Positions 3,130 through 20,393 of a stretch of 60,152 nucleotides of DNA are shown one piece after another. A model generated the notes under the pieces. That model saw nothing but the letters and a program-made list of their open reading frames with translations, was not told where the DNA came from and made no database searches. Made by a program: the position numbers and the translations under genes. Position 1 is the first letter of the stretch, and the number at the start of each line of letters is the position of its first letter. Source of the stretch: a virus (Duplodnaviria > Heunggongvirae > Uroviricota > Caudoviricetes); IMG/VR virus record IMGVR_UViG_3300034355_001008. One strand, written 5' to 3'.

Positions 3130-3573
3130 ATGAAAAAATATTTACAATTATTTTTCATTATGTGTTTTTCAGTAGGAGTTAATGCAACACCATTGACGTT
3201 TGAATTTAAAGATCCATCATTTTCAGGAAATGGTTGGTCGGCTCAGGTTATAACTTTAGAACAAATTGAAGCGCAACGTAAACAAAAAATTAAAGACGAT
3301 CAATCGGCAGCAATTGCTAAAGCCGAAGTTGCTGCAAATAATAGCAATTTATCTAAATTTTTAGTTAATGTTGAATCTAGAATTTATGCTCAATTATCAA
3401 AACAATTAACTGATCAACTGTTTTCTGATACAGGAGCAACATCAGGGACAATGGATTTTCAAGGAACATCAATTAATTGGATTAAAACAGCTAATGATGT
3501 TACATTAACAATTATGGAAACAAACGGTAATACAACAGATATTACTGTGCCAATAGGACAATTCGGATTCTAA
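3130..3573 (+). CDS. csgF: Curli assembly protein CsgF-like
   Basis: Signal peptide, LTFEFKDPSFSGNG N-terminal motif, ESRIYAQLS; directly upstream of csgG-like gene. Confidence 0.82.
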   Translation: MKKYLQLFFIMCFSVGVNATPLTFEFKDPSFSGNGWSAQVITLEQIEAQRKQKIKDDQSAAIAKAEVAANNSNLSKFLVNVESRIYAQLSKQLTDQLFSDTGATSGTMDFQGTSINWIKTANDVTLTIMETNGNTTDITVPIGQFGF

Positions 3574-3574
3574 T

Positions 3575-4369
3575 ATGAAATATATTATTTTATCATTATT
3601 TTTATTACTTTCTGGTTGTTCACAACTTGCTCTAGAATTAGCAGCAGAAGAACCAGTTTCTGTTAAACCAAGAGCAAATCTATCAGAAAAACTTCCTTTT
3701 CTTGAAGGGGATTCAATTCCTATTTCTGTGTACGAATTTACCGATAAAACTGGGCAACGTAAACCGTCTGATAAATTAGCTCAATTATCAACAGCTGTTC
3801 CACAAGGCGCAGAATCTTTTGTTATTAAAGCTCTACAAGATTCAAAAAATTGGTTTAAAGTTGTTGAACGCGTCGGTTTAGATAGTTTAGTTAAAGAACG
3901 TCAATTAATTAGAAATCAAAGAGAAGTTTACGAAAAAACTGAAGCAAAACCATTAACTCCATTGATGGTTAGCGGATTAATAGTAACAGGAAGTATATCT
4001 GGTTACGATTCTGACATAAGATCTGGCGGTATTGGTTTACGATTATTTAAATTAGGTTTTACTGATGAATATCGTGTAGATAAAATTACTATTTCAATGA
4101 GAGTTATCTCAGTTGCAACTGGAGAAGTTTTGTTATCGGTAATAACAACAAAAACAATTTATAGTTTTGCCTCAGGTGGCGGAGCTATGATGTTTATTGG
4201 AACTGGTAATGTAACTGCTCTTGAAGCGGAAGTTGGTGATGCTGTTAATGAACCAATCACCGAAGGAGTTAGAGTAGCTATTGAAGATAGTGTTTATTCC
4301 ATGATACTTGAAGGTGAAAAGAAAGGTCTCTGGAAATTTAAAAAAGAAATGCAACCATTCCGCATATAA
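3575..4369 (+). CDS. csgG: Curli secretion channel CsgG-like lipoprotein
   Basis: Lipobox LLSGC; SVYEFTDKTGQRKP, STAVPQGA, WFKVVERVGLDSLVKERQLIR. Confidence 0.93.
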   Translation: MKYIILSLFLLLSGCSQLALELAAEEPVSVKPRANLSEKLPFLEGDSIPISVYEFTDKTGQRKPSDKLAQLSTAVPQGAESFVIKALQDSKNWFKVVERVGLDSLVKERQLIRNQREVYEKTEAKPLTPLMVSGLIVTGSISGYDSDIRSGGIGLRLFKLGFTDEYRVDKITISMRVISVATGEVLLSVITTKTIYSFASGGGAMMFIGTGNVTALEAEVGDAVNEPITEGVRVAIEDSVYSMILEGEKKGLWKFKKEMQPFRI

Positions 4370-4380
4370 AGGAAAAATAA

Positions 4381-5016
4381 ATGAAAAAAATACAAATATA
4401 TTTAATTATGTTTGTTATGCTTTTTGCTAAATCTGTATTAGCTAGTGACGTTTTTATTGAACAAATTGGAAGTTCTTCTGAAATTAAAGTAACTCAACAA
4501 GGAACTTCAAATAGAATAGGTAGTTCTTTAACTCCTTCGTTTTTTGGTGGAGATAGTAGTAAATTTACAATTGAACAAGTTGGCGCTGTTAATGAATTGG
4601 ATTTATTAATTAATGGTAACAATACAAATGTAACATTAGAAACATATGGTGCTGGTAATATCGAAAGTATTATTTGCGGAAGTAAAACTACACCAAATTC
4701 TTGCGATAATTCTACAATCGATTATACAATATCAGGTAATAATAATAAAATTACTACAAATTTAGGAGCTGCTGATAAATCTGCTACAAGTAAAATGAAT
4801 ATTTCCGGTAATAATAATATTGTTACTCATACAGGGACTCATACAAGTACTCTTGGTAGTAAAATATCGGCAGATTTAACTCTTATCGGAAATTCAAATA
4901 AAATTGATATGACTCAATCAGGAAGTTTGGATGAAAACATTAAAGTCACCAGCACAGGTAACAACAATAACATTAGCATTACTCAGTCTTCTGTTATTAC
5001 TTTACTCGCCCCGTAG
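4381..5016 (+). CDS. Curlin-like secreted repeat protein
   Basis: Signal peptide then repeated Q/I-x-G-x-x-N units (IEQIGSSS, TQQGTSN, IEQVGAVN, ISGNNN); follows csgF/csgG. Confidence 0.7.
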   Translation: MKKIQIYLIMFVMLFAKSVLASDVFIEQIGSSSEIKVTQQGTSNRIGSSLTPSFFGGDSSKFTIEQVGAVNELDLLINGNNTNVTLETYGAGNIESIICGSKTTPNSCDNSTIDYTISGNNNKITTNLGAADKSATSKMNISGNNNIVTHTGTHTSTLGSKISADLTLIGNSNKIDMTQSGSLDENIKVTSTGNNNNISITQSSVITLLAP

Positions 5017-6010
5017 TTTTGGAGCAATTGGTAAAGTTTCTGAACAAACTGGAGTAGCTGAAATACAGCGAAATAAACAATCGCTACCAAGTGCTGTTAA
5101 TACAGAAATTGAATCTATGGATGTCGTGGTTACTGCAAAAGGTAAACTCGACATTACTTTTAATGATAATACCAAAGTTTCCGTTGGCGAACAAAGTAAA
5201 CTTGTAATTGACGATTTTGTTTATGACGCTAAAAAATCCACAGGAAAACTTGGATTAAAAATTGCATTAGGAACTGTTCGTTATGCCTCTGGACAAATAG
5301 CAAAACATAATCCACAAAATGTTGGAATACAAACTCCAACGGCTACCGTTGCTGTTCGTGGTACAGATTTTTCTACAACAGTAGATGAATTAGGTCAAAG
5401 TACATTTATTCTGTTACCAAGTTGCGATTTATCTGGTTGCGTAACAGGAGCTATTGAAGTTTCTACAGATGCAGGTTTTGTTTTATTAAACCAAGCATTT
5501 CAATCAACTACTGTTTCTGATAAAACAAATTCTCCATCAAAACCAACTATAATTAATATTGATCCATTAAATATTAACAATAGCTTAATTGTATCTTCTC
5601 CAGTAAAAGCCGCTGACACAACAGTAACAGTTCAACAAATAAAAACTGGATTAGATGTTAATTTTCTTGATCAAGATTTTTTAACGTACAAACAATTAAG
5701 TATCAATTTATTAGATGTAAAAACTGATTTAGATAAAAATAAATTAGATGAAAAATTATTAACAAATGCATTAGACGAACCGATTGATGATATTAGTGAT
5801 ACGCTACCTGGATATGATGAAAAAACAAATTTAAAATATAATACAAATGGAAAAGCATTAGTTCTTGATAAAGAAGCAACCAAAAATAAATTTCAATTAA
5901 AAGTAGATAAAAATGCAGATGCAACTTTAAAATTAAATCAAGAAGGAACTGTTTTAACTCAAAATATTAACATGGGTACAACCACGAAAATAGATATTAC
6001 ACAAAAATAA
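4931..6010 (+). CDS. FecR-domain periplasmic protein
   Basis: Signal peptide; ITFNDNTKVSVGEQSKLVIDDFVYD, GTVRYASG, TPTATVAVRGTDF. Confidence 0.88.
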   Translation: MKTLKSPAQVTTITLALLSLLLLLYSPRSFGAIGKVSEQTGVAEIQRNKQSLPSAVNTEIESMDVVVTAKGKLDITFNDNTKVSVGEQSKLVIDDFVYDAKKSTGKLGLKIALGTVRYASGQIAKHNPQNVGIQTPTATVAVRGTDFSTTVDELGQSTFILLPSCDLSGCVTGAIEVSTDAGFVLLNQAFQSTTVSDKTNSPSKPTIINIDPLNINNSLIVSSPVKAADTTVTVQQIKTGLDVNFLDQDFLTYKQLSINLLDVKTDLDKNKLDEKLLTNALDEPIDDISDTLPGYDEKTNLKYNTNGKALVLDKEATKNKFQLKVDKNADATLKLNQEGTVLTQNINMGTTTKIDITQK

Positions 6011-6013
6011 TAT

Positions 6014-6763
6014 ATGGATAAAAAATACCAAAGCATTTTTATTAGCGATATACATTTAGGAACAAAAGATTCTAAAGCAATTGAATTAATTGATTTTTTA
6101 AAAAATAATACTTGCAATAAATTGTATCTTGTTGGAGATATAATTGATGGATGGAAAATACAACAAAATAAACTTAAATGGAAACCTAGTCATACAAAAT
6201 TAATTCATAAATTTTTATCTTTATCGAGGAAAGGAACTGAGGTAATATACATAACAGGGAATCATGATGAATTTATTAGACCAATGGTTAATCTTAACGT
6301 CACCTTTGGTAAAATTTCAATTCATAATCAATATGAACATAATGGAATTGATGGTAAACGCTATTTGGTAACTCATGGAGATTTATTTGATGGAATTACT
6401 AGACTTGCTCCATGGTTAAGTTTTCTTGGAGATAAAGGCTATGATTTAATTTTATCATTAAATAATAAATTTAATTGGGTAAGACATAAATTGGGATTTG
6501 GTTATTGGAGCCTAAGTAAATATTTAAAACATAAAGTTAAAAAAGCTGTCGATTTTATGTTCCAGTTCGAAATAAATTTAACAGACTATTGCAAAAAACG
6601 TGGATATGACGGCGTTATCTGCGGACACATTCATCACGCGGAAATAAAAAAAATTAATGGTGTAACATATATGAATGATGGAGATTGGGTAGAATCATTA
6701 ACGGCTTTAGTCGAACATCATGATGGTAGATGGGAAATTATAACATATAGTAAGGAGGAATAA
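6014..6763 (+). CDS. plcP: PlcP-like phospholipase C (LpxH2-type metallophosphoesterase)
   Basis: FISDIHLG, LVGDIIDGW, GNHDE, HGDLFD, YWSLSKYLKHKVKKAV, VICGHIHHAE, NDGDWVES match the PlcP subfamily; adjacent GT4 gene. Confidence 0.8.
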   Translation: MDKKYQSIFISDIHLGTKDSKAIELIDFLKNNTCNKLYLVGDIIDGWKIQQNKLKWKPSHTKLIHKFLSLSRKGTEVIYITGNHDEFIRPMVNLNVTFGKISIHNQYEHNGIDGKRYLVTHGDLFDGITRLAPWLSFLGDKGYDLILSLNNKFNWVRHKLGFGYWSLSKYLKHKVKKAVDFMFQFEINLTDYCKKRGYDGVICGHIHHAEIKKINGVTYMNDGDWVESLTALVEHHDGRWEIITYSKEE

Positions 6764-6930
6764 TGTATATTTTAGTGGCATTACAAGCAGTAGCAGCATT
6801 AGGAACTAGTCTTTTTTGGCAACCAATTGGCGATTTTAGTTCGTATGAATCTTGTAAAATGGCAATGGAACAATTACATAAATCAAAAGAGCATAGAGAA
6901 GGTGAAATGTATGTTTGCCTAAAAAAATAA
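6763..6930 (+). CDS. 55-aa hypothetical protein
   Basis: Not in track; AGGAGG RBS, MYILVALQAV...YESCKMA...VCLKK, fills the gap exactly. Confidence 0.65.
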   Translation: MYILVALQAVAALGTSLFWQPIGDFSSYESCKMAMEQLHKSKEHREGEMYVCLKK

Positions 6931-6931
6931 T

Positions 6932-7933
6932 ATGAAAAAAACTATCTTAATAATAACAGACAATTTACCGAACCAAATTAATGGCGTGGTAACTACATTT
7001 AATAATTTAAAACTTGTTGGCGAACAAGAGGAGTTTACTTTTGAATTTATAACTCCTCTAGATTTTAAACATATTAATATGCCAAAATATCCAGAAGTTA
7101 AATTAAGTTTTCCTTTTGGATTAACTAAGAAAATTAAAAAAATAAATCCAGATTTTATTCATATAGCAACAGAAGGTACTATTGGAATTGCAGCTAAATT
7201 GGCGTGTAAGAAAAATAAATGGAAATATAACACGAGTTATCACACGAATTTCCCAGAATTCGCTAAAAAGATTTACGGAATGCCAGAAAAAATTACATAC
7301 AAATTTTTACGTTGGTTTCATAATCGTTCTTATAAAGTTTTAACAACAACCAATACTATGGTTCAAGAATTAAAATCTAATGGATTTAAATGTGATGTTA
7401 TTTCATGGACTAGAGGTATTAATAGAGAAGAATTAACTCCAACTAAACCAAAAGAAAATAGAGAACAAATTATATTGTTATCTGTTGGTAGGGTTTCTAA
7501 AGAAAAAAATTTAGATGTATTATGTCAATTATCAACTAATCCGCAATATCACATTCAAATTGTCGGAGATGGTCCATATAGAAAAAAACTTGAAAAAAAA
7601 TACCCATTGGTAGAATTTGTTGGTTATAAATCTGGATCAGAATTAGCCGATTATTATGTTAATGCTGATGTATTTTGCTTTCCAAGTAAAACCGATACAT
7701 TTGGAATTGTAATGATTGAAGCAATGTCATTGGGATGCCCTGTAGCTGGATATCCAGTTGCTGGTCCAATTGATGTTATTGAATCTGATGTTAATGGTTA
7801 CATGGATGAAAATTTTGAAAACGCTATATTAAAATGTTTATCTCTTGATAGACATAAAGTTTATGTTAGCTCATTCAAATGGACTTGGGAAAATTGCTGG
7901 AAAATATTTAAAGAAAATCTTGTTCATAAATAA
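6932..7933 (+). CDS. GT4 glycosyltransferase (Agt-like glycolipid synthase)
   Basis: QINGVVTT, IHIATEG, YHTNFPEF, VGRVSKEKN, GDGP, FPSKTDTFGIVMIEAMSLG. Confidence 0.88.
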   Translation: MKKTILIITDNLPNQINGVVTTFNNLKLVGEQEEFTFEFITPLDFKHINMPKYPEVKLSFPFGLTKKIKKINPDFIHIATEGTIGIAAKLACKKNKWKYNTSYHTNFPEFAKKIYGMPEKITYKFLRWFHNRSYKVLTTTNTMVQELKSNGFKCDVISWTRGINREELTPTKPKENREQIILLSVGRVSKEKNLDVLCQLSTNPQYHIQIVGDGPYRKKLEKKYPLVEFVGYKSGSELADYYVNADVFCFPSKTDTFGIVMIEAMSLGCPVAGYPVAGPIDVIESDVNGYMDENFENAILKCLSLDRHKVYVSSFKWTWENCWKIFKENLVHK

Positions 7934-7958
7934 TGTTTTAATCTAACTTAAGGTAATC

Positions 7959-8717
7959 ATGAAAAAAATTGTTTTAGCTTTATGTCTTTTATTTTCTACA
8001 GCTGTTTTTGCAAATCCAATCGATGACAAATGTTCTCATTTTGCAACTTGGGGTGCTCCGCAAATTAAAACTGAAGGCGATAATCAATATATCTGCAAAA
8101 CCGGATATGCTGTTAACCTAAACTATAAAACCAAAGTTCCGTATTTTGTTATTGAACATATCACAGCTGACCACCTAAAAAAATCAGTTGGTAGAAAAGA
8201 TGATTTTCGCGAAGATGCTGAAGTTCCTGCTGAATACCGTGTAACATTAAAAGATTATGTTGGTTCTAACTTAGATCGTGGACACATGGCACCCGCAGCA
8301 GATTTCGTTTATGATGCTAAAGTAATGAGCGAATCATTTTTCCTTGATAACATGATGCCTCAAAGTCAACCATTAAATCGCGGAGCATGGAAATTACTTG
8401 AAGAAAAAACCCGCGACCTAGTTGCTCATGGCGATGTTTATGCTATTACCGGAACAATTTATGAGGGCGAATACAAAACTATTGGAAATAAAGTTGGAGT
8501 TCCTACTCATATTTACAAAGTAATTATTCAACCAAGCAAAGAACGAATGGTTGCATTTTTATTCCCTAATGAAAAAGTCGACCCAAAACAATTGGCAAAA
8601 TATATTGTTCCTGTTGCTGATTTAGAAGTTAAAGTTGGTGTTGATTTTTCTCCGGCAATTCCAGAAAATTTAAAAGCATTAGAAGCAGTGGCAGCGAAAT
8701 ATGAAGATTGGTTCTAA
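7959..8717 (+). CDS. Secreted DNA/RNA non-specific endonuclease (NucA-like)
   Basis: Signal peptide; DRGHMAPAAD, NMMPQ...LNRGAWKLLE. Confidence 0.93.
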   Translation: MKKIVLALCLLFSTAVFANPIDDKCSHFATWGAPQIKTEGDNQYICKTGYAVNLNYKTKVPYFVIEHITADHLKKSVGRKDDFREDAEVPAEYRVTLKDYVGSNLDRGHMAPAADFVYDAKVMSESFFLDNMMPQSQPLNRGAWKLLEEKTRDLVAHGDVYAITGTIYEGEYKTIGNKVGVPTHIYKVIIQPSKERMVAFLFPNEKVDPKQLAKYIVPVADLEVKVGVDFSPAIPENLKALEAVAAKYEDWF

Positions 8718-10716
8718 ATTAAAAGCATTATTAAGTCCTTATTGGGCATTGGTAACTCTACTGCTAGTTTTAGCAGTAAGGGTTGCCGATCCATCATTTG
8801 TTGAATCGATTCGTCTTCGCTATTTCGACACATTAATTACATCTAAAGCTCCAACAGAAAATAATGTTTATACAGTTAACATTGATGAAGCAGCATTAGA
8901 TAAGTATGGTCAATGGCCATTTAAACGCGATTTTTATGCAGATACAATTGAAACATTATATTTACATAATGCAGGATTAGTTGTATTTAATGTTTTAATG
9001 AGCGAAACTGACCGTTTAGGCGGAGATGATAAATTAGAACAAACTTTAAAAGTATTACCTGTTATTTTACCTAGTGTTCCTGCTGGTAAAACTAAAAATA
9101 CTCCAAAGAATCCTGGATCGGTAATTTTAAATCCAGAATATCAAGATAAAATAGTTAGCTATCCTGGAATTATTTCCAATATTTCTGCATTAGAAAATAG
9201 TTCTGCTGGTGTTGGAACTGTTAATACGCTACCGGAAATTGATGGAGTTAATCGCAGAGTTCCATTACTAACATCAGTTAACAATGTATTGTATCCATCA
9301 TTAAGTCTAGAAACGTTAAGAGTTCTTGCACAGGATACAACATTTCAAGTAAAACTAAATGAATTGGGTGTAGAAAAACTGCGCATTCCACAATTTGGTC
9401 CAGTTACAACAGATAGTCTAGGTAGAATCTGGATTGATTGGAGTCAAAAAAATCAAGCAGTAAGCATTACTGATATTCCTGCTGATTTTGGTGGAGCTGT
9501 GGTTATTGTTGGAACAACTGCTGCTGGTATTGTAAATCCATTATCAACACCAATTGGAGCAGTTTATCCGCAAGATGTTCAGGCGGCTGTTATTTCTACT
9601 ATGATTAATGGCGTAGTTATAGAACGTCCTGATTGGACAGATATGGCTGAAGCATTGGCTATATTCTTAGGAGGAGCCTTAGTTGTCGTTGGATCGCGCT
9701 GGACGTATGCATTTGTTCCGGTAATACTAACGTTAGGTGCAAGTCATTTCGCAGCTGCATGGGTCTTTAAGAGCTATAATATGCTCATTGACATTACAGC
9801 TTTTGTAATTGGAATTGCATTAGTTTACGGGCATGCATATACCGTTAAATTTCTTTCTGAATATTTACAAAAAGAGCAAATTAAAAAACAATTTGGCGGA
9901 TACGTTTCCCCTGTAATGGTTGAAAGATTACAAAAAAATCCAGATTTAATTAAATTAGGCGGAGAAAGAAAATTAATCTCCTCTGTTATGACGGATCTTC
10001 GCGGATTTACTACTTTAGGCGAATCATATGGTGATGATGTTGAGGGTTTAACTCAAATCATGAACGATTATATGACTGCTATTTCTGAACCTGTATTAAA
10101 AAATGATGGATGTATTATTAAATTTATTGGCGATGCAAGTTTACACATTCATGGTGCTCCATTAGATGATGAAAATCATGCGAAAGTTGCTGTTCAAACT
10201 GGATTAGAAATGGTTGAGGCTGTTACTCAATTTAATAAACAGTTAATTTCTCTGGGTAAACCTCCAGTTGGTATGGGTGTTGGTGTAAATTCTGGACCAA
10301 TTTTAATAGGTAACATTGGATCGAAATATAGATTCGGTTATGATGTACTAGGAGATACTGTATCATTAACTTCTAGATTAGAAGGGCAAACAAAAGGATA
10401 TGGCGTGTTACTAATCCTTGGGGAAACAACAGCTGAATTAGTTAAAGATGATTTTAAATTAGCAGAATTGGATTGCATTGCAGTTAAGGGTAAACATATT
10501 GGTGTAAAAATGTTTACAGTAGCCGAAACTTTACCTGCGCATCAACAATATTTGAATGCATATTATGCAGGAGATTGGGGATCTGCTAGAGTTATATGTA
10601 AACATTTAGCTGAACAACCTGGACCTCTACAACATTATTATGAATTAATGCTAGAAAGAATCTCAGGCGAATGTCCAGCTAACTGGGATGGCGTGTATCA
10701 TGCAACTTCCAAGTAA
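8701..10716 (+). CDS. CHASE2-domain class III adenylate/guanylate cyclase
   Basis: GQWPFKR CHASE2 region, three TM helices, TDLRGFT, IKFIGDA, GVNSG, GNIGS...YDVLGDTVSLTSRLE. Confidence 0.93.
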   Translation: MKIGSKLKALLSPYWALVTLLLVLAVRVADPSFVESIRLRYFDTLITSKAPTENNVYTVNIDEAALDKYGQWPFKRDFYADTIETLYLHNAGLVVFNVLMSETDRLGGDDKLEQTLKVLPVILPSVPAGKTKNTPKNPGSVILNPEYQDKIVSYPGIISNISALENSSAGVGTVNTLPEIDGVNRRVPLLTSVNNVLYPSLSLETLRVLAQDTTFQVKLNELGVEKLRIPQFGPVTTDSLGRIWIDWSQKNQAVSITDIPADFGGAVVIVGTTAAGIVNPLSTPIGAVYPQDVQAAVISTMINGVVIERPDWTDMAEALAIFLGGALVVVGSRWTYAFVPVILTLGASHFAAAWVFKSYNMLIDITAFVIGIALVYGHAYTVKFLSEYLQKEQIKKQFGGYVSPVMVERLQKNPDLIKLGGERKLISSVMTDLRGFTTLGESYGDDVEGLTQIMNDYMTAISEPVLKNDGCIIKFIGDASLHIHGAPLDDENHAKVAVQTGLEMVEAVTQFNKQLISLGKPPVGMGVGVNSGPILIGNIGSKYRFGYDVLGDTVSLTSRLEGQTKGYGVLLILGETTAELVKDDFKLAELDCIAVKGKHIGVKMFTVAETLPAHQQYLNAYYAGDWGSARVICKHLAEQPGPLQHYYELMLERISGECPANWDGVYHATSK

Positions 10717-11052: not shown

Positions 11053-11284
11053 CTTCGAACACCGCTACGACTTCATCTTCTGAAACAACCCATAACTCTC
11101 CAGAAACATTTTTTGCTTTATTCCAATTCAAAAGAATAATGTCGCCCAATTTAAGTAATGTAACATCATGACCTAAGTTCATGACTTTTCCTTTTGTATT
11201 ATCTTCAGAGTTAACGCCATAAATTAAACCCTGATATTCCGCTTTTTGTTTTAAAACAAGAACGTTTTTTCCCAATACTTGCAT
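11045..11284 (-). CDS. groES: GroES-like co-chaperonin
   Basis: VLGKNVLV...GKVMNLG...LKLGDIIL...VVSEDEVVAVFE; 79 aa Cpn10 pattern. Confidence 0.8.
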   Translation of the reverse strand: MQVLGKNVLVLKQKAEYQGLIYGVNSEDNTKGKVMNLGHDVTLLKLGDIILLNWNKAKNVSGELWVVSEDEVVAVFEDD

Positions 11285-11304
11285 AATATTTTCCTATAGT
11301 TAAT

Positions 11305-11326
11305 AAAAGGGGATGTTTCCATCCCC
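11305..11326 (-). terminator. Intrinsic terminator after tmRNA
   Basis: GGGGATG-GAAA-CATCCCC followed by TTTT. Confidence 0.8.
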
Positions 11327-11645
11327 AAGCCGTTCTGTTTCCAAGTGGCTTAATCTCAGGCAATAGCTATCAAGCAGCTAAAGCCAGATTGTAAACGTCA
11401 TCGTTTGCATTTACTTTGTTTTATGCTGATTACGTCAGTCATCTCTCGTGTTGCCTTCTCTACTATCTCACCTGATCGAAACCATGACAGCCCCATCAAA
11501 AACATACTATTTGAGTCTTTAAACTCGATCACCATTCAGTAGATTACCGCGAATAGTCTACCTTCTGAGTCTAATATGTTTATGGTGAAGCTGGAGGGAT
11601 TCGAACCCTCGTCTCAGATGCCTTCATTTTGAAGGAGTTACAACA
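11327..11645 (-). ncRNA. ssrA: Circularly permuted (two-piece) tmRNA, tag ANDDVYNLALAA
   Basis: Acceptor piece ending GAGGGTTCGAATCCCTCCAGCTTCACCA (at 11583) precedes coding piece starting GGGGCTG (11494); tag frame 11408-11370; helix-2 pairings between pieces. Confidence 0.92.
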
Positions 11646-11959
11646 ATTCAGTTACTTTCCTGAGAAAGTTTACACAGTTTGCGCTTTAATAATAAAAGTT
11701 CAATAGTATTATCAAGCGTTTTTCTATAATTTAATATTTCTACTTTTTTCTTTAGTGAAAGATTATTAAAGTTTCTTCTTGTTACTGGCCAAATCTCACC
11801 ATTCATCTAGGTTTTCCTAGATTTAGCAGTACAACCAAAAAGAAAACAATTAATGCTAATTCAGAAATTTTAATCGCTATAGCTGGAACTGCCATTAATA
11901 ATAAAAAAAATAATACAACGCCTAATATAAATTTTTCAATTAGTTTCATAATTTAACCT

Positions 11960-12010
11960 TATAAATAGTTGTAGATCGCGGAATTGCAGTTCCCATCTAC
12001 TCTAATCATT
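11960..12010 (+). promoter_or_regulatory. Late promoter plus conserved structured leader, copy A
   Basis: TATAAATA; GTAGAT-CGC-GGAA-loop-TTCC-C-ATCTAC-TCTAATCATT. Confidence 0.8.
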
Positions 12011-12032
12011 CAACATTAATAAAGGAATTAAC

Positions 12033-12749
12033 ATGACCAGCACAAATACTTATACTGTTCAAACAGCACTTAACTTTTATATTTACGCATATATACGAGA
12101 AAAAGATTCAATAACTGCTAAAGCAGGAACTCCTTATTATATTGGAAAAGGATCAGGTAATAGAGCATATAGTAAACATCATTTTAAAATCCCATCAGAC
12201 AAATCTTTAATAGTTATAATTGAATCAAATTTAACTGAACTTGGAGCATTTGCCCTCGAAAGAAAATATATTAGATGGTTTGGTAGAAAAGATTTAAAAA
12301 CTGGAATTTTAATTAATTGCACTGATGGCGGTGATGGAATTTCCGGATTTAATCATTCGAATAAAACTAAAATGTTATTATCGGAAATAACTGCATCAAA
12401 AGAAATGCAATCAAAAATTAAAAACACCAAACGAATAAAATATAATAATGAAAATTTTAATAACATTAATAAAATACAATCTACTCTGCAAGAAAAATAT
12501 GGTGTTAATAATATTTCGCAATTAACTGAAACAAAAAATAAAAAGATAAAAAAGTCATTAGAAAAATATGGTGTTGATAATATTTCTAAATCTCCGGTAA
12601 TTAAAGAGAAAAAACGTCAAACATTATTAGAAAGAACTGGTTACGACCACCCACAAAAAATTCCATTTTTATCTGTAATAGAAAATAAAAAAACTTATAC
12701 TAAATCTATTGTAACTAGATATTATCCAGAATTTAAACAATATTATTGA
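12033..12749 (+). CDS. GIY-YIG-like homing endonuclease
   Basis: FYIYAY...[11 protein letters not shown]...ALERKYI...DGGDG; C-terminal KYGVxNIS repeats. Confidence 0.85.
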
Positions 12750-13345: not shown

Positions 13346-13813
13346 TTAAACACTATTATTTTTTTGTAATCTCGCTAAATCTCCATCCATCATAGAAAGT
13401 TTTTTAGTTCGTTGCGTATCTTTAATTAATTCGTTAATTAACAGAGAAGATAATTTAATCAATTCTTTTGTTTGAGGCTCATCTAATTGATTATTGTTAA
13501 ACCCATTAAGAAGTTTTCCATATTTTGCTAATGGCGTTTTTAATTTTGGGTTTGTATAATTTATTTTCATTTCTTTTTCTATTAATCTAAGGTGATAATA
13601 TTCCGGAGCATCTTTGATTTTAAGCGGAAATCCATTAGCATTCCATATAATTGGATAACGATAATTTCCAAACAAAACTACTCCTAAGATTTTATCATTA
13701 AGAGTATCGCTAATTTCAAATTTATGTCCAGCCGCAACCACTATAGTTTTATTTATAGTATCTGGAGTAATTAAATCGATAATTCTTTTAGAGGTGTTCA
13801 ATTTTAACTCCAT
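13346..13813 (-). CDS. Hypothetical protein
   Basis: 155-aa ORF coupled to neighbours. Confidence 0.65.
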   Translation of the reverse strand: MELKLNTSKRIIDLITPDTINKTIVVAAGHKFEISDTLNDKILGVVLFGNYRYPIIWNANGFPLKIKDAPEYYHLRLIEKEMKINYTNPKLKTPLAKYGKLLNGFNNNQLDEPQTKELIKLSSLLINELIKDTQRTKKLSMMDGDLARLQKNNSV

Positions 13814-14174
13814 CGTTATCCAAAAATGCTTTAAATAGATATTTTCTATCTTCTTTTTTAACTAAATTTAATTTAATAGCAATTTGAGTTGCAAACTGCC
13901 ATTTAATAAAGTAATCCGGTTTAGCAGTAATTAAAATATTAAACTCACCAATTCTAAACGCTACCATGTCGTCATCTGAATATGTTACATCAGCTCCGCA
14001 TTTAGAATCAACTGTATGCTCTGCTTCCCACTTTTCAATATTATCGACCAATATCATAATATCGATATCATTATACGGTTCTGTTGGACAAATATATTTA
14101 GAGCCTGTGTATAATACTTCTTTTGCTTCGGCAATTATTTGTTTAATATATTCTGGAAGATCTTCTTGAATCAT
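13788..14174 (-). CDS. Putative minimal nucleotidyltransferase-fold protein
   Basis: TGS...NDIDIMIL resembles the Pol-beta GS/DxD motif. Confidence 0.5.
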   Translation of the reverse strand: MIQEDLPEYIKQIIAEAKEVLYTGSKYICPTEPYNDIDIMILVDNIEKWEAEHTVDSKCGADVTYSDDDMVAFRIGEFNILITAKPDYFIKWQFATQIAIKLNLVKKEDRKYLFKAFLDNDGVKIEHL

Positions 14175-20342: not shown

Positions 20343-20393
20343 TATAAATAGTTGTAGATCGCGGGTTCCGACGCCCCATCTACTCTAAACATT
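20343..20393 (+). promoter_or_regulatory. Late promoter plus conserved structured leader, copy B
   Basis: TATAAATA; GTAGAT-CGC-GGGT-loop-GCCC-C-ATCTAC-TCTAAACATT. Confidence 0.8.

What the first reader, a model, noticed from the sequence alone, without database searches (positions are those of the whole stretch)
11305..11645. Circularly permuted two-piece tmRNA in a phage
Seen (minus strand): T-arm/acceptor 3' piece ending CAGCTTC-ACCA (11583) comes first, then an 88-nt self-complementary spacer (AAACATATT...AGTATGTTT), then the GGGGCTG 5' piece (11494). Inter-piece helix 2 pairs (CAGGTG/CATCTG, GAAGG/CCTTC, CAAC/GTTG), the G3-U70 alanine determinant is present, the tag is ANDDVYNLALAA-stop, and a terminator follows. 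Established: permuted tmRNAs occur in alphaproteobacteria, some cyanobacteria and some betaproteobacteria; one-piece tmRNAs occur in phages. Inference: ribosome rescue independent of host ssrA, with a possibly distinct degron; also a host or ancestry clue. No smpB in this window.
Basis: partly seen in the sequence, partly recalled or inferred. Interest (0 to 1): 0.8.

Follow-up and report, generated by a model that had tools for sequence, protein, structure and literature searches.

The report
Phage two-piece tmRNA, swappable tag
This aquatic T4-like phage carries a real, rearranged ("two-piece") gene for tmRNA, the RNA that frees stalled ribosomes; such phage genes are already described, so the find is ordinary, but relatives show that its spacer and its tag-coding stretch are exchanged like cassettes.

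Summary
On the minus strand, 11686-11300, lies a circularly permuted tmRNA gene: Rfam tmRNA_permuted 135 bits (cut-off 47) and beta_tmRNA 133 bits (cut-off 84). Covariation backs the acceptor stem, T-arm, inter-piece helix 2 and pseudoknot 1. G3.U70 is invariant, the tag reads ANDDVYNLALAA-stop, and a terminator follows. No smpB is in the window, nor in a complete 372-kb relative.

It is not new as a kind. Buchholz et al. 2022 (PMC9004378) list permuted tmRNAs in Pelagibacter, Synechococcus, Caulobacter and other phages. This scan has also met phage two-piece tmRNAs many times on other DNA.

The degron is canonical (ends ALAA). The Rfam subtype is a poor host clue: beta-scoring genes sit unannotated in phages of Stenotrophomonas and Synechococcus elongatus.

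Three details go beyond the finding:
- Near-identical relatives carry a second tag, AANDANYGDYALAA. Over 670 bases, 25 of 27 differences fall in 48 bases.
- Spacers and tRNA-like halves are also reshuffled between gene backbones.
- The window's G2.U71 wobble is the middle step between G-C and A-U, and it is why ARAGORN misses the gene.

Verdict: new member of a known kind, modest interest.

The parts
11689..11715 (-). Candidate promoter: TTGATA (11715-11710), 15 nt, TATTAT (11694-11689). Inference only.
   Evidence: Read. The region aligns with the strong TTGACA-16-TATAAT of the jumbo-phage homologues. The consensus scan did not call it because the spacing is 15 nt.
11583..11647 (-). Acceptor piece, transcribed first. 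It holds the helix-2 5' strands (11645-11641, 11635-11631, 11620-11614), the T-arm (11610-11594), the acceptor 3' strand (11593-11587) and an encoded ACCA (11586-11583). Its true 5' end is unknown.
   Evidence: Rfam alignment, covariation, cofold of the two pieces.
11588..11588 (-). U71: a C-to-U change that gives a G2.U71 wobble next to G3.U70.
   Evidence: Relatives have C here. L196 shares the U, and L215 has the completed A2-U71 pair. ARAGORN finds the gene in G2-C71 relatives but not in the two G2.U71 sequences.
11495..11582 (-). 88-nt intervening spacer, removed on maturation (inferred). A 10-bp closing helix stacks on the acceptor stem, and there are two inner hairpins. It contains no complete ORF.
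   Evidence: It is 100% identical in group-1 relatives but replaced wholesale in L196, L215 and L216.
11426..11494 (-). 5' part of the coding piece: acceptor 5' strand GGGGCUG (11494-11488), helix-2 3' strands (11475-11469, 11458-11449) and pseudoknot 1 (11448-11426).
   Evidence: Both PK1 stems show compensatory changes.
11370..11408 (-). Tag reading frame: GCA resume codon to TGA, reading ANDDVYNLALAA*.
   Evidence: Within this allele there are only synonymous changes (AAT/AAC, CTG/TTG) and stop-to-stop changes.
11362..11409 (-). Swappable tag cassette. This is the only divergent block between the window and otherwise identical relatives that carry AANDANYGDYALAA.
   Evidence: of 27 differences over 11940-11271, 25 lie here.
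11327..11351 (-). 3' hairpin of the coding piece, with the conserved loop ACUUGGAAACAGAAC.
   Evidence: beta_tmRNA alignment. Compensatory stems AGCC/GGCU, AACC/GGUU and GACC/GGUC appear in relatives and bacteria.
11305..11326 (-). Intrinsic terminator: GGGGAUGGAAACAUCCCC followed by UUUU.

Best explanation
This is a functional phage-encoded two-piece tmRNA gene. Shown: the gene is laid out as acceptor piece, 88-nt spacer, then coding piece. Its helices are kept by compensatory changes, the alanine determinant G3.U70 is invariant, and the tag frame changes only synonymously within an allele. Inferred: one precursor is transcribed and folds so that the spacer helix stacks on the acceptor stem. 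Host RNase P cuts 5' of G11494, and host 3' trimming leaves the encoded CCA at 11583. The two RNAs stay together through about 20 intermolecular base pairs. Host AlaRS charges the RNA. Host SmpB and EF-Tu deliver it to ribosomes stalled on broken or stop-less mRNAs, which are expected in quantity when a T4-like phage shuts down and degrades host transcripts. Translation then switches to the tag frame and adds ANDDVYNLALAA, a canonical ClpXP-type degron. The ribosome is released and the peptide is degraded. The phage thereby keeps ribosome rescue running, and amino acids recycled, without relying on host ssrA transcription.
For: - Rfam scores are far above the cut-offs.
- Covariation: 97.8% of cells paired and 20 of 35 pairs changed on both sides, against 0 of 500 shuffles.
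- G1-C72 and G3.U70 are invariant in 53 genes, and pair 2-71 runs G-C, G.U, A-U.
- The cofold predicts 23 intermolecular pairs.
- The terminator is present.
- The gene is 99-100% conserved where the neighbouring protein genes differ by 20-40% (L011).
- Tag allele A shows only synonymous or stop-preserving changes.
- A phage setting is established by DNA ligase, RNA ligases, endolysin, homing endonucleases and tRNAs, and by relatives in Melnitz and HTVC008M.
- The same kind of gene is accepted as tmRNA in related phages (PMC9004378).
Against: No clear promoter was found. The G2.U71 wobble beside G3.U70 could weaken alanylation (my knowledge of tRNA-Ala identity elements, not tested). No phage smpB exists, so function rests on compatibility with an unknown host's SmpB. 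The near-perfect identity among relatives includes the discarded spacer. It could therefore partly reflect recent exchange rather than selection.
Confidence: 0.85

Rival explanations
1. The RNA is a working tmRNA, but its main use is not general ribosome rescue. Instead it directs tagging and proteolysis, for example to recycle host proteins or to tune which adaptor or protease sees tagged products. Alternative tag cassettes would then be kept by selection.
For: Two tag alleles occur in otherwise identical genes, and a third (ASNDDIYDLALAA) occurs in a related lineage. The alleles differ in the N-terminal and middle part and keep ALAA. Buchholz et al. raise selective degradation as one idea.
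Against: Tagging and rescue are the same reaction, so this is a matter of emphasis. Cassette exchange could be a neutral by-product of recombination in a mosaic region next to a homing endonuclease. No adaptor is known for the host.
Confidence: 0.1
2. It is a decoy that inhibits host trans-translation by titrating SmpB or AlaRS, as proposed for the tRNA-like-domain-only RNA of mycobacteriophage DS6A.
For: Phage tRNA-like-domain-only molecules exist and a similar molecule inhibits tmRNA (PMC4131195). The window variant has a weakened 2-71 pair.
Against: The gene keeps a complete mRNA-like domain: PK1 with covariation, an alanine resume codon, a constrained tag frame and a stop codon. A decoy would not need these.
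Confidence: 0.03
3. It is a non-functional passenger: a captured host ssrA remnant, or an attachment-site copy of the tmRNA gene end.
For: Prophages often carry ssrA fragments because they integrate there (PMC9004378).
Against: Both halves are complete, and the gene is under structural and coding constraint. It is shared by many lytic-type large phages. It has no close bacterial counterpart among 401 sampled Burkholderiales genomes.
Confidence: 0.02

Closest known systems
ssrA of Methylophilales phage Melnitz (MZ577097.1, 45984-46436) and of the pelagimyophages HTVC008M and Mosig (Buchholz et al. 2022, PMC9004378)
   Same: It is a two-piece permuted tmRNA in an aquatic T4-like (Kyanoviridae-type) myophage without smpB. 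The phages share a curli csgF/csgG block and a 671-aa cyclase-domain protein (40% identity). Both have a long spacer (142 nt in Melnitz).
   Different: The Melnitz gene scores as alpha_tmRNA (106.7 bits) and is followed by a glutamine riboswitch (RF01739, 52.8 bits). For the window gene, beta_tmRNA is the only subtype model reported, at 133 bits. In near-identical relatives (G001, G005) the alpha model scores 43 bits, below its cut-off of 50. No riboswitch was found at E<=1. The flanking genes are not homologous.
Unannotated permuted tmRNA genes of Stenotrophomonas phage vB_SmaS-DLP_6 (KU682439.2, about 102792-103065) and Synechococcus phage BUCT-ZZ01 (ON615601.1, about 116891-117291, complement)
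   Same: They are the nearest genes in cultured phages. The coding-piece 5' half is 72-73% identical. Both pass beta_tmRNA (103.7 and 94.5 bits) and tmRNA_permuted. PK1 shows compensatory changes, and the tags are ANDDSFAPMAIAA and ANDETFSMALAA.
   Different: The spacers differ (about 30 nt in DLP6, about 130 nt in BUCT-ZZ01), as do the tags and the hosts (a gammaproteobacterium and a freshwater cyanobacterium).
Betaproteobacterial two-piece tmRNA (Rfam RF01850; Sharkady and Williams 2004, cited in PMC9004378)
   Same: The overall architecture is shared, including the 3' hairpin with the CUUGGNAACAGAA loop. Tag style is the same, for example ANDENFALAA in Basilea and Taylorella.
   Different: Bacterial spacers are 24-35 nt against 88 nt here. 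The bacterial genes score 155-296 bits against 133 bits. The phage PK1 21-mer was not found, at up to 2 mismatches, in 401 sampled Burkholderiales genomes.
Caulobacter two-piece tmRNA (Keiler, Shapiro and Williams 2000, cited in PMC9004378)
   Same: It is the experimentally shown precedent: one precursor is cut into two RNAs held together by base pairing, and the product is active in tagging.
   Different: It is an alpha-type bacterial gene. Nothing has been shown experimentally for the phage gene here.
One-piece tmRNAs of mycobacteriophages (Bxz1 group) and Bacillus phage G (PMC4131195)
   Same: They are phage-borne tmRNA genes without a phage smpB.
   Different: They have the standard gene order, not the permuted one.

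Membership tests
Permuted (two-piece) tmRNA, Rfam RF04321 | Covariance-model score at or above the curated cut-off (47 bits) | tested here: met
   135.2 bits, E 2.3e-26, full model 1-213.
Permuted (two-piece) tmRNA, Rfam RF04321 | Gene order: T-arm and acceptor 3' strand with CCA come first, then an intervening segment, then the acceptor 5' strand and the mRNA-like domain | tested here: met
   ACCA ends at 11583, the spacer is 11582-11495, and GGGGCUG starts at 11494.
Permuted (two-piece) tmRNA, Rfam RF04321 | 7-bp acceptor stem with the G3.U70 alanine determinant | tested here: met
   G3.U70 occurs in 12 of 12 aligned sequences and in all 53 genes tabulated. The window also has G2.U71.
Permuted (two-piece) tmRNA, Rfam RF04321 | Inter-piece helix 2 and pseudoknot 1, kept by compensatory change | tested here: met
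   Helices 1-3 and the two PK1 stems are 88-100% paired. 20 of 35 pairs change on both sides.
Permuted (two-piece) tmRNA, Rfam RF04321 | Tag reading frame that starts at an alanine resume codon and ends in a hydrophobic degron plus a stop | tested here: met
   GCA...ANDDVYNLALAA-TGA. Only synonymous variation occurs within the allele.
Permuted (two-piece) tmRNA, Rfam RF04321 | Precursor cut into two RNAs; alanylation; SmpB-dependent tagging | not testable with these tools
There is no biochemical test here.
beta_tmRNA subtype, Rfam RF01850 | Score at or above 84 bits and higher than the alpha and cyano subtype models | tested here: met
   The window scores 133.3 bits. In near-identical relatives the scores are beta 123, alpha 43 (below 50) and cyano 39.8 (below 70).
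beta_tmRNA subtype, Rfam RF01850 | Descent from, or residence in, the betaproteobacterial lineage that defines the family | tested here: inconclusive
   No close bacterial relative was found in 151 + 101 + 401 sampled genomes. Beta-scoring genes occur in phages of Stenotrophomonas and Synechococcus elongatus. Some phage genes that share the PK1 core have alpha-like T-loops, or score as alpha (L186, L179).
Melnitz-type phage ssrA (alpha-type tmRNA with glutamine riboswitch) | alpha_tmRNA model above cut-off, and a glutamine riboswitch in the 3' region | tested here: not met
   The alpha model scores 43-48 bits, below 50, in relatives. No RF01739 match was found at E<=1 in 11100-11900. Melnitz itself gives 106.7 and 52.8 bits.

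The most novel reading that the evidence does not exclude
The phage tmRNA gene is a modular, recombining unit. The acceptor piece, the spacer, the tRNA-like 5' half with an almost invariant PK1 core, and the tag cassette are exchanged independently between co-occurring phages. One phage population keeps at least two alternative degradation tags, ANDDVYNLALAA and AANDANYGDYALAA, in an otherwise identical gene. In this reading selection acts on which host adaptor or protease recognises rescued proteins, so the polymorphism is not neutral mosaicism.
Probability: 0.25. Interest if true: 0.55.

Novelty: new member of a known kind. Interest (0 to 1): 0.3.

Why it matters
As a phage two-piece tmRNA it adds one more case to a known list, so it changes little.

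Three practical points follow:
- A single wobble at pair 2-71 hides the gene from ARAGORN. Surveys based on that program, such as the 2022 census, undercount these genes. At least two cultured phage genomes in GenBank carry unannotated ones.
- The Rfam alpha/beta/cyano subtype of a phage tmRNA should not be used to infer the host or host switches. Beta-scoring genes occur in phages of a gammaproteobacterium and of a cyanobacterium, and the modules of these genes are reshuffled.
- The tag-cassette dimorphism in a near-clonal background is a natural experiment. It could show whether phages tune the fate of rescued proteins, and it is testable with simple degradation assays.

Tried and rejected
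- **Same locus as in Melnitz: rejected.** The 79-aa ORF downstream (11284-11045) has no similarity to Melnitz's late-transcription coactivator. The exonuclease upstream is not similar to Melnitz's PDDEXK nuclease.
- **Glutamine riboswitch as in Melnitz: none found**.
- **Host or donor search led nowhere.**
  - A specific 28-nt pattern found nothing in the GTDB species genomes.
  - The 19-mer at the 5' end hits mostly one-piece tmRNAs of Erysipelotrichales.
  - The sampled Burkholderiales that have beta-type genes are high-GC genomes, or Basilea and Taylorella. None is close.
  - BLAST of the whole gene against 401 genomes found only T-arm-sized matches.
  - Two 1.3-Mb genomes have no permuted tmRNA.
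  - PK1 21-mer matches with 3 mismatches occur at the rate of the reversed-pattern control.
- **Protein gene inside the spacer** (a lead from earlier notes of this scan): not present here. The only ORF starting in the spacer (11535-11398, 45 aa) runs through the tRNA-like domain and is absent from L196.
- **Phage collection searches.** Whole-gene blastn against the phage collection gave nothing at E 1e-5. A shorter query at E 10 found DLP6 and BUCT-ZZ01.
- **Not attempted or not possible.**
  - A tree of phage against bacterial tmRNAs was not built. The phage set was gathered through shared exact words, so the clustering would be biased.
  - Complex prediction and structure tools were not used, because no protein claim is made.

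Full report
**Observation**

- An acceptor-side piece ends in CAGCTTC-ACCA at 11583.
- An 88-nt spacer follows (11582-11495).
- GGGGCTG begins at 11494.
- The frame GCA AAC GAT GAC GTT TAC AAT CTG GCT TTA GCT GCT TGA (11408-11370) reads ANDDVYNLALAA-stop.
- A GC-rich hairpin with a T-run lies at 11326-11305.

Rfam gives tmRNA_permuted 135.2 bits (cut-off 47) over 11645-11370. It gives beta_tmRNA 133.3 bits (cut-off 84) over 11686-11300. ARAGORN reports only four tRNAs in the window and no tmRNA.

**Is it more than chance?**

I collected homologues in three ways:
- from IMG/VR with the 5' 19-mer (20 contigs);
- from metagenomes with the PK1 21-mer (27 contigs);
- from sampled Burkholderiales genomes with RF01850.

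I then made a 12-sequence alignment: six near relatives, two jumbo-phage genes, one GC-rich viral contig and three bacteria. The structure tested was the acceptor stem, the T-arm, three helix-2 segments and the two PK1 stems.
- 97.8% of cells pair, and 20 of 35 pairs change on both sides.
- No shuffle out of 500 reaches this.
- Sliding the partners by 1-3 columns gives 39-51% paired.

G3.U70 is invariant in the alignment and in all 53 genes I tabulated. The precursor folds to this structure at z = -3.8. The two mature pieces are predicted to hold together by 23 intermolecular pairs.

CCUUC (11635-11631) can pair either with GAAGG of the coding piece or with GAAGG within the acceptor piece. The energy model prefers the local hairpin, and the jumbo-phage genes have a mismatch in the inter-piece version.

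**Context**

The window is phage DNA. It encodes DNA ligase, two RNA ligases, an exonuclease, an endolysin, several homing endonucleases and four tRNAs. G+C is about 32%.

The 671-aa protein next to the gene matches only Melnitz (40% identity), HTVC008M (37%) and three weak partial hits. In Melnitz that gene follows the same curli csgF/csgG block.

The window's own assembly is not held. The nearest record, G001, shares 30% of sampled words and has the same tmRNA.

No SmpB gene is in the window (tblastn with three bacterial SmpB proteins). None is in five related viral records, including a complete 372-kb genome with terminal repeats.

**What is already known**

Buchholz et al. 2022 (PMC9004378) describe a two-piece tmRNA in the OM43 myophage Melnitz. 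They report 53 two-piece calls among 18,146 phage genomes, 50 of them aquatic. They also found permuted tmRNAs in 17 of 47 Melnitz-like contigs. Their Table S1 names HTVC008M, Mosig, five Synechococcus phages, the phiCbK-like Caulobacter phages and others.

The 2025 tmRNA database paper counts 79 phage sequences (PMC11915505). Earlier notes of this scan record many phage two-piece tmRNAs on other DNA, some with a protein gene in the spacer.

**Subtype and the host clue**

- In near-identical relatives the beta model scores 123 bits, the alpha model 43 (below 50) and the cyano model 39.8 (below 70).
- Melnitz's gene is the opposite: alpha 106.7 bits, plus a glutamine riboswitch at 52.8 bits. 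The window has no riboswitch match at E<=1.
- I found no close bacterial counterpart.
  - Only 3 of 151 genomes sampled at order level, and 7 of 101 at family level, have beta-type genes.
  - Two of them could be named, Basilea and Taylorella; these are animal-associated bacteria (from my own knowledge).
  - BLAST and pattern searches over 401 genomes gave only T-arm-sized or chance-level matches.
- Two cultured phages carry beta-scoring permuted tmRNAs that their GenBank records do not annotate. They are Stenotrophomonas phage DLP6 (103.7 bits) and Synechococcus elongatus phage BUCT-ZZ01 (94.5 bits).
- Contigs that share the exact PK1 21-mer include genes with alpha-like T-loops, and one that scores as alpha.

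The subtype label therefore says little about the host.

**Degron**

The tag has the ordinary proteobacterial layout: AND(D/E), an aromatic residue, then ALAA. Compare ANDENFALAA, ANDERFALAA and ANDESYALAA in the bacteria I sampled. Nothing marks it as a distinct degron.

**What the relatives add**

1. *A second tag allele.*
   - Eleven contigs of the same phage group carry AANDANYGDYALAA instead.
   - Six sequences carry the window's tag.
   - Against L005, the 670 bases 11940-11271 differ at 27 sites: 11588, 11419 and 25 sites within 11409-11362.
   - Within the window's allele the only changes are AAT/AAC, CTG/TTG and TGA/TAG. That pattern fits a translated frame.
2. *Modules recombine.*
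   - L215 has the window's acceptor piece (99%) and coding 5' half (98%). Its spacer, however, is 91% identical to that of L179, an unrelated backbone.
   - L216 has the window's tag and 3' end (98%), but a different acceptor piece (81%) and spacer.
   - L011 shares the gene at about 100% identity, while the neighbouring genes downstream are only about 60-87% identical.
3. *Pair 2-71.* It is G-C in most genes, G.U in the window and L196, and A-U in L215. The window holds the intermediate of a compensatory change. ARAGORN 1.2.41 finds the gene in the G-C relatives L003 and L011 but not in the two G.U sequences. This most likely explains the miss.
4. *Spacer length.* Phage spacers are 54-142 nt, apart from about 30 nt in DLP6; bacterial ones are 24-35 nt. 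Most begin and end with a 9-14-bp helix of varying sequence that stacks on the acceptor stem. The window's spacer contains no complete ORF.

**Mechanism**

*Shown:* the anatomy, the structural constraint, the coding constraint on the tag, and the absence of phage smpB.

*Inferred from the Caulobacter precedent and general tmRNA biology:*
- the gene is transcribed as one precursor;
- RNase P cuts at G11494, and trimming leaves the CCA at 11583;
- host AlaRS adds alanine;
- host SmpB and EF-Tu deliver the RNA to ribosomes stalled on stop-less mRNAs during infection;
- the nascent peptide is tagged and degraded by Clp-type proteases.

I put 0.85 on a functional rescue tmRNA. Rivals are a tagging-centred role (0.10), a decoy (0.03) and a dead passenger (0.02).

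**Limits**

- The promoter is unresolved. TATTAT at 11694-11689 has a TTGATA only 15 nt upstream, and the scan does not call it.
- The host is unknown.
- The phage homologues were gathered through shared exact words, so I made no clade claim.

**Verdict**

The thing is a new member of a known kind, and interest is modest (0.3). The part most worth a follow-up is the tag and spacer cassette exchange.

Noticed in passing
window 11954-12748 (ORF 12033-12749, + strand): This homing-endonuclease-like gene is an insertion found only in the window. All 14 related contigs join 11953 directly to about 12749 or 12805. It sits about 300 bp upstream of the tmRNA gene, in a region where flanking haplotypes are mosaic.
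   Followed up: partly
window 11561-11539 (minus strand), compared with 11971-12000 and 20354-20383 (+ strand): A hairpin inside the tmRNA spacer (GTAGA-CTATTCGCGGTAA-TCTAC) shares GTAGA, CGCGG and ATCTAC with the leader hairpins upstream of two homing endonuclease genes. This may be chance or a shared element. The pattern has 1 match in the window against 0 expected.
   Followed up: no
KU682439.2 about 102792-103065 (L213:1367-1640); ON615601.1 about 116891-117291, complement (L214:1285-1685): Two cultured phages carry complete permuted tmRNA genes that are not annotated in their GenBank records: Stenotrophomonas phage DLP6 and Synechococcus phage BUCT-ZZ01. Their tags are ANDDSFAPMAIAA and ANDETFSMALAA.
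   Followed up: partly
L182, L183, L184, L189, L193, L197, L201-L203 (spacers of their tmRNA genes): In this other phage tmRNA lineage the 76-124-nt spacers differ mostly at third codon positions of a frame reading PRNLFYTEREW... They therefore look protein-coding, as earlier notes of this scan reported for related genes.
   Followed up: partly
L008 (188-kb contig), L012 (372-kb complete genome with terminal repeats), L021, L190: Jumbo-phage relatives of the gene have unusually long tags of 21-30 residues: ANDSNFEFYTLDNIDLDVMAA, AKASKFEYMTVDFSLEAADMVA, and a 30-residue tag ending FAV. They also have a consensus TTGACA-16-TATAAT promoter.
   Followed up: no
L183:3502-3546, L203:2239-2283, L182:4517-4561: A COG2908 RNA motif (RF02939, 64-70 bits) lies 0.4-2 kb from the tmRNA gene in three phage-like metagenome contigs.
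   Followed up: no
window 3130-10716: The curli-type csgF/csgG block plus a 671-aa cyclase-domain protein lies in the same order as in Melnitz (MZ577097.1, 50731-56876). This ties the phage to the Melnitz and pelagimyophage group.
   Followed up: partly
window 13790-14170: Contigs L004 and L018 lack this stretch (ORF 13788-14174, 128 aa). It is a second presence/absence polymorphism near the tmRNA gene.
   Followed up: no
window 11284-11045: A 79-aa ORF directly after the tmRNA terminator gives only a weak PHROG match to co-chaperonin GroES (E 2e-5) and no Pfam match. It is not the gp33-like coactivator that follows ssrA in Melnitz.
   Followed up: partly
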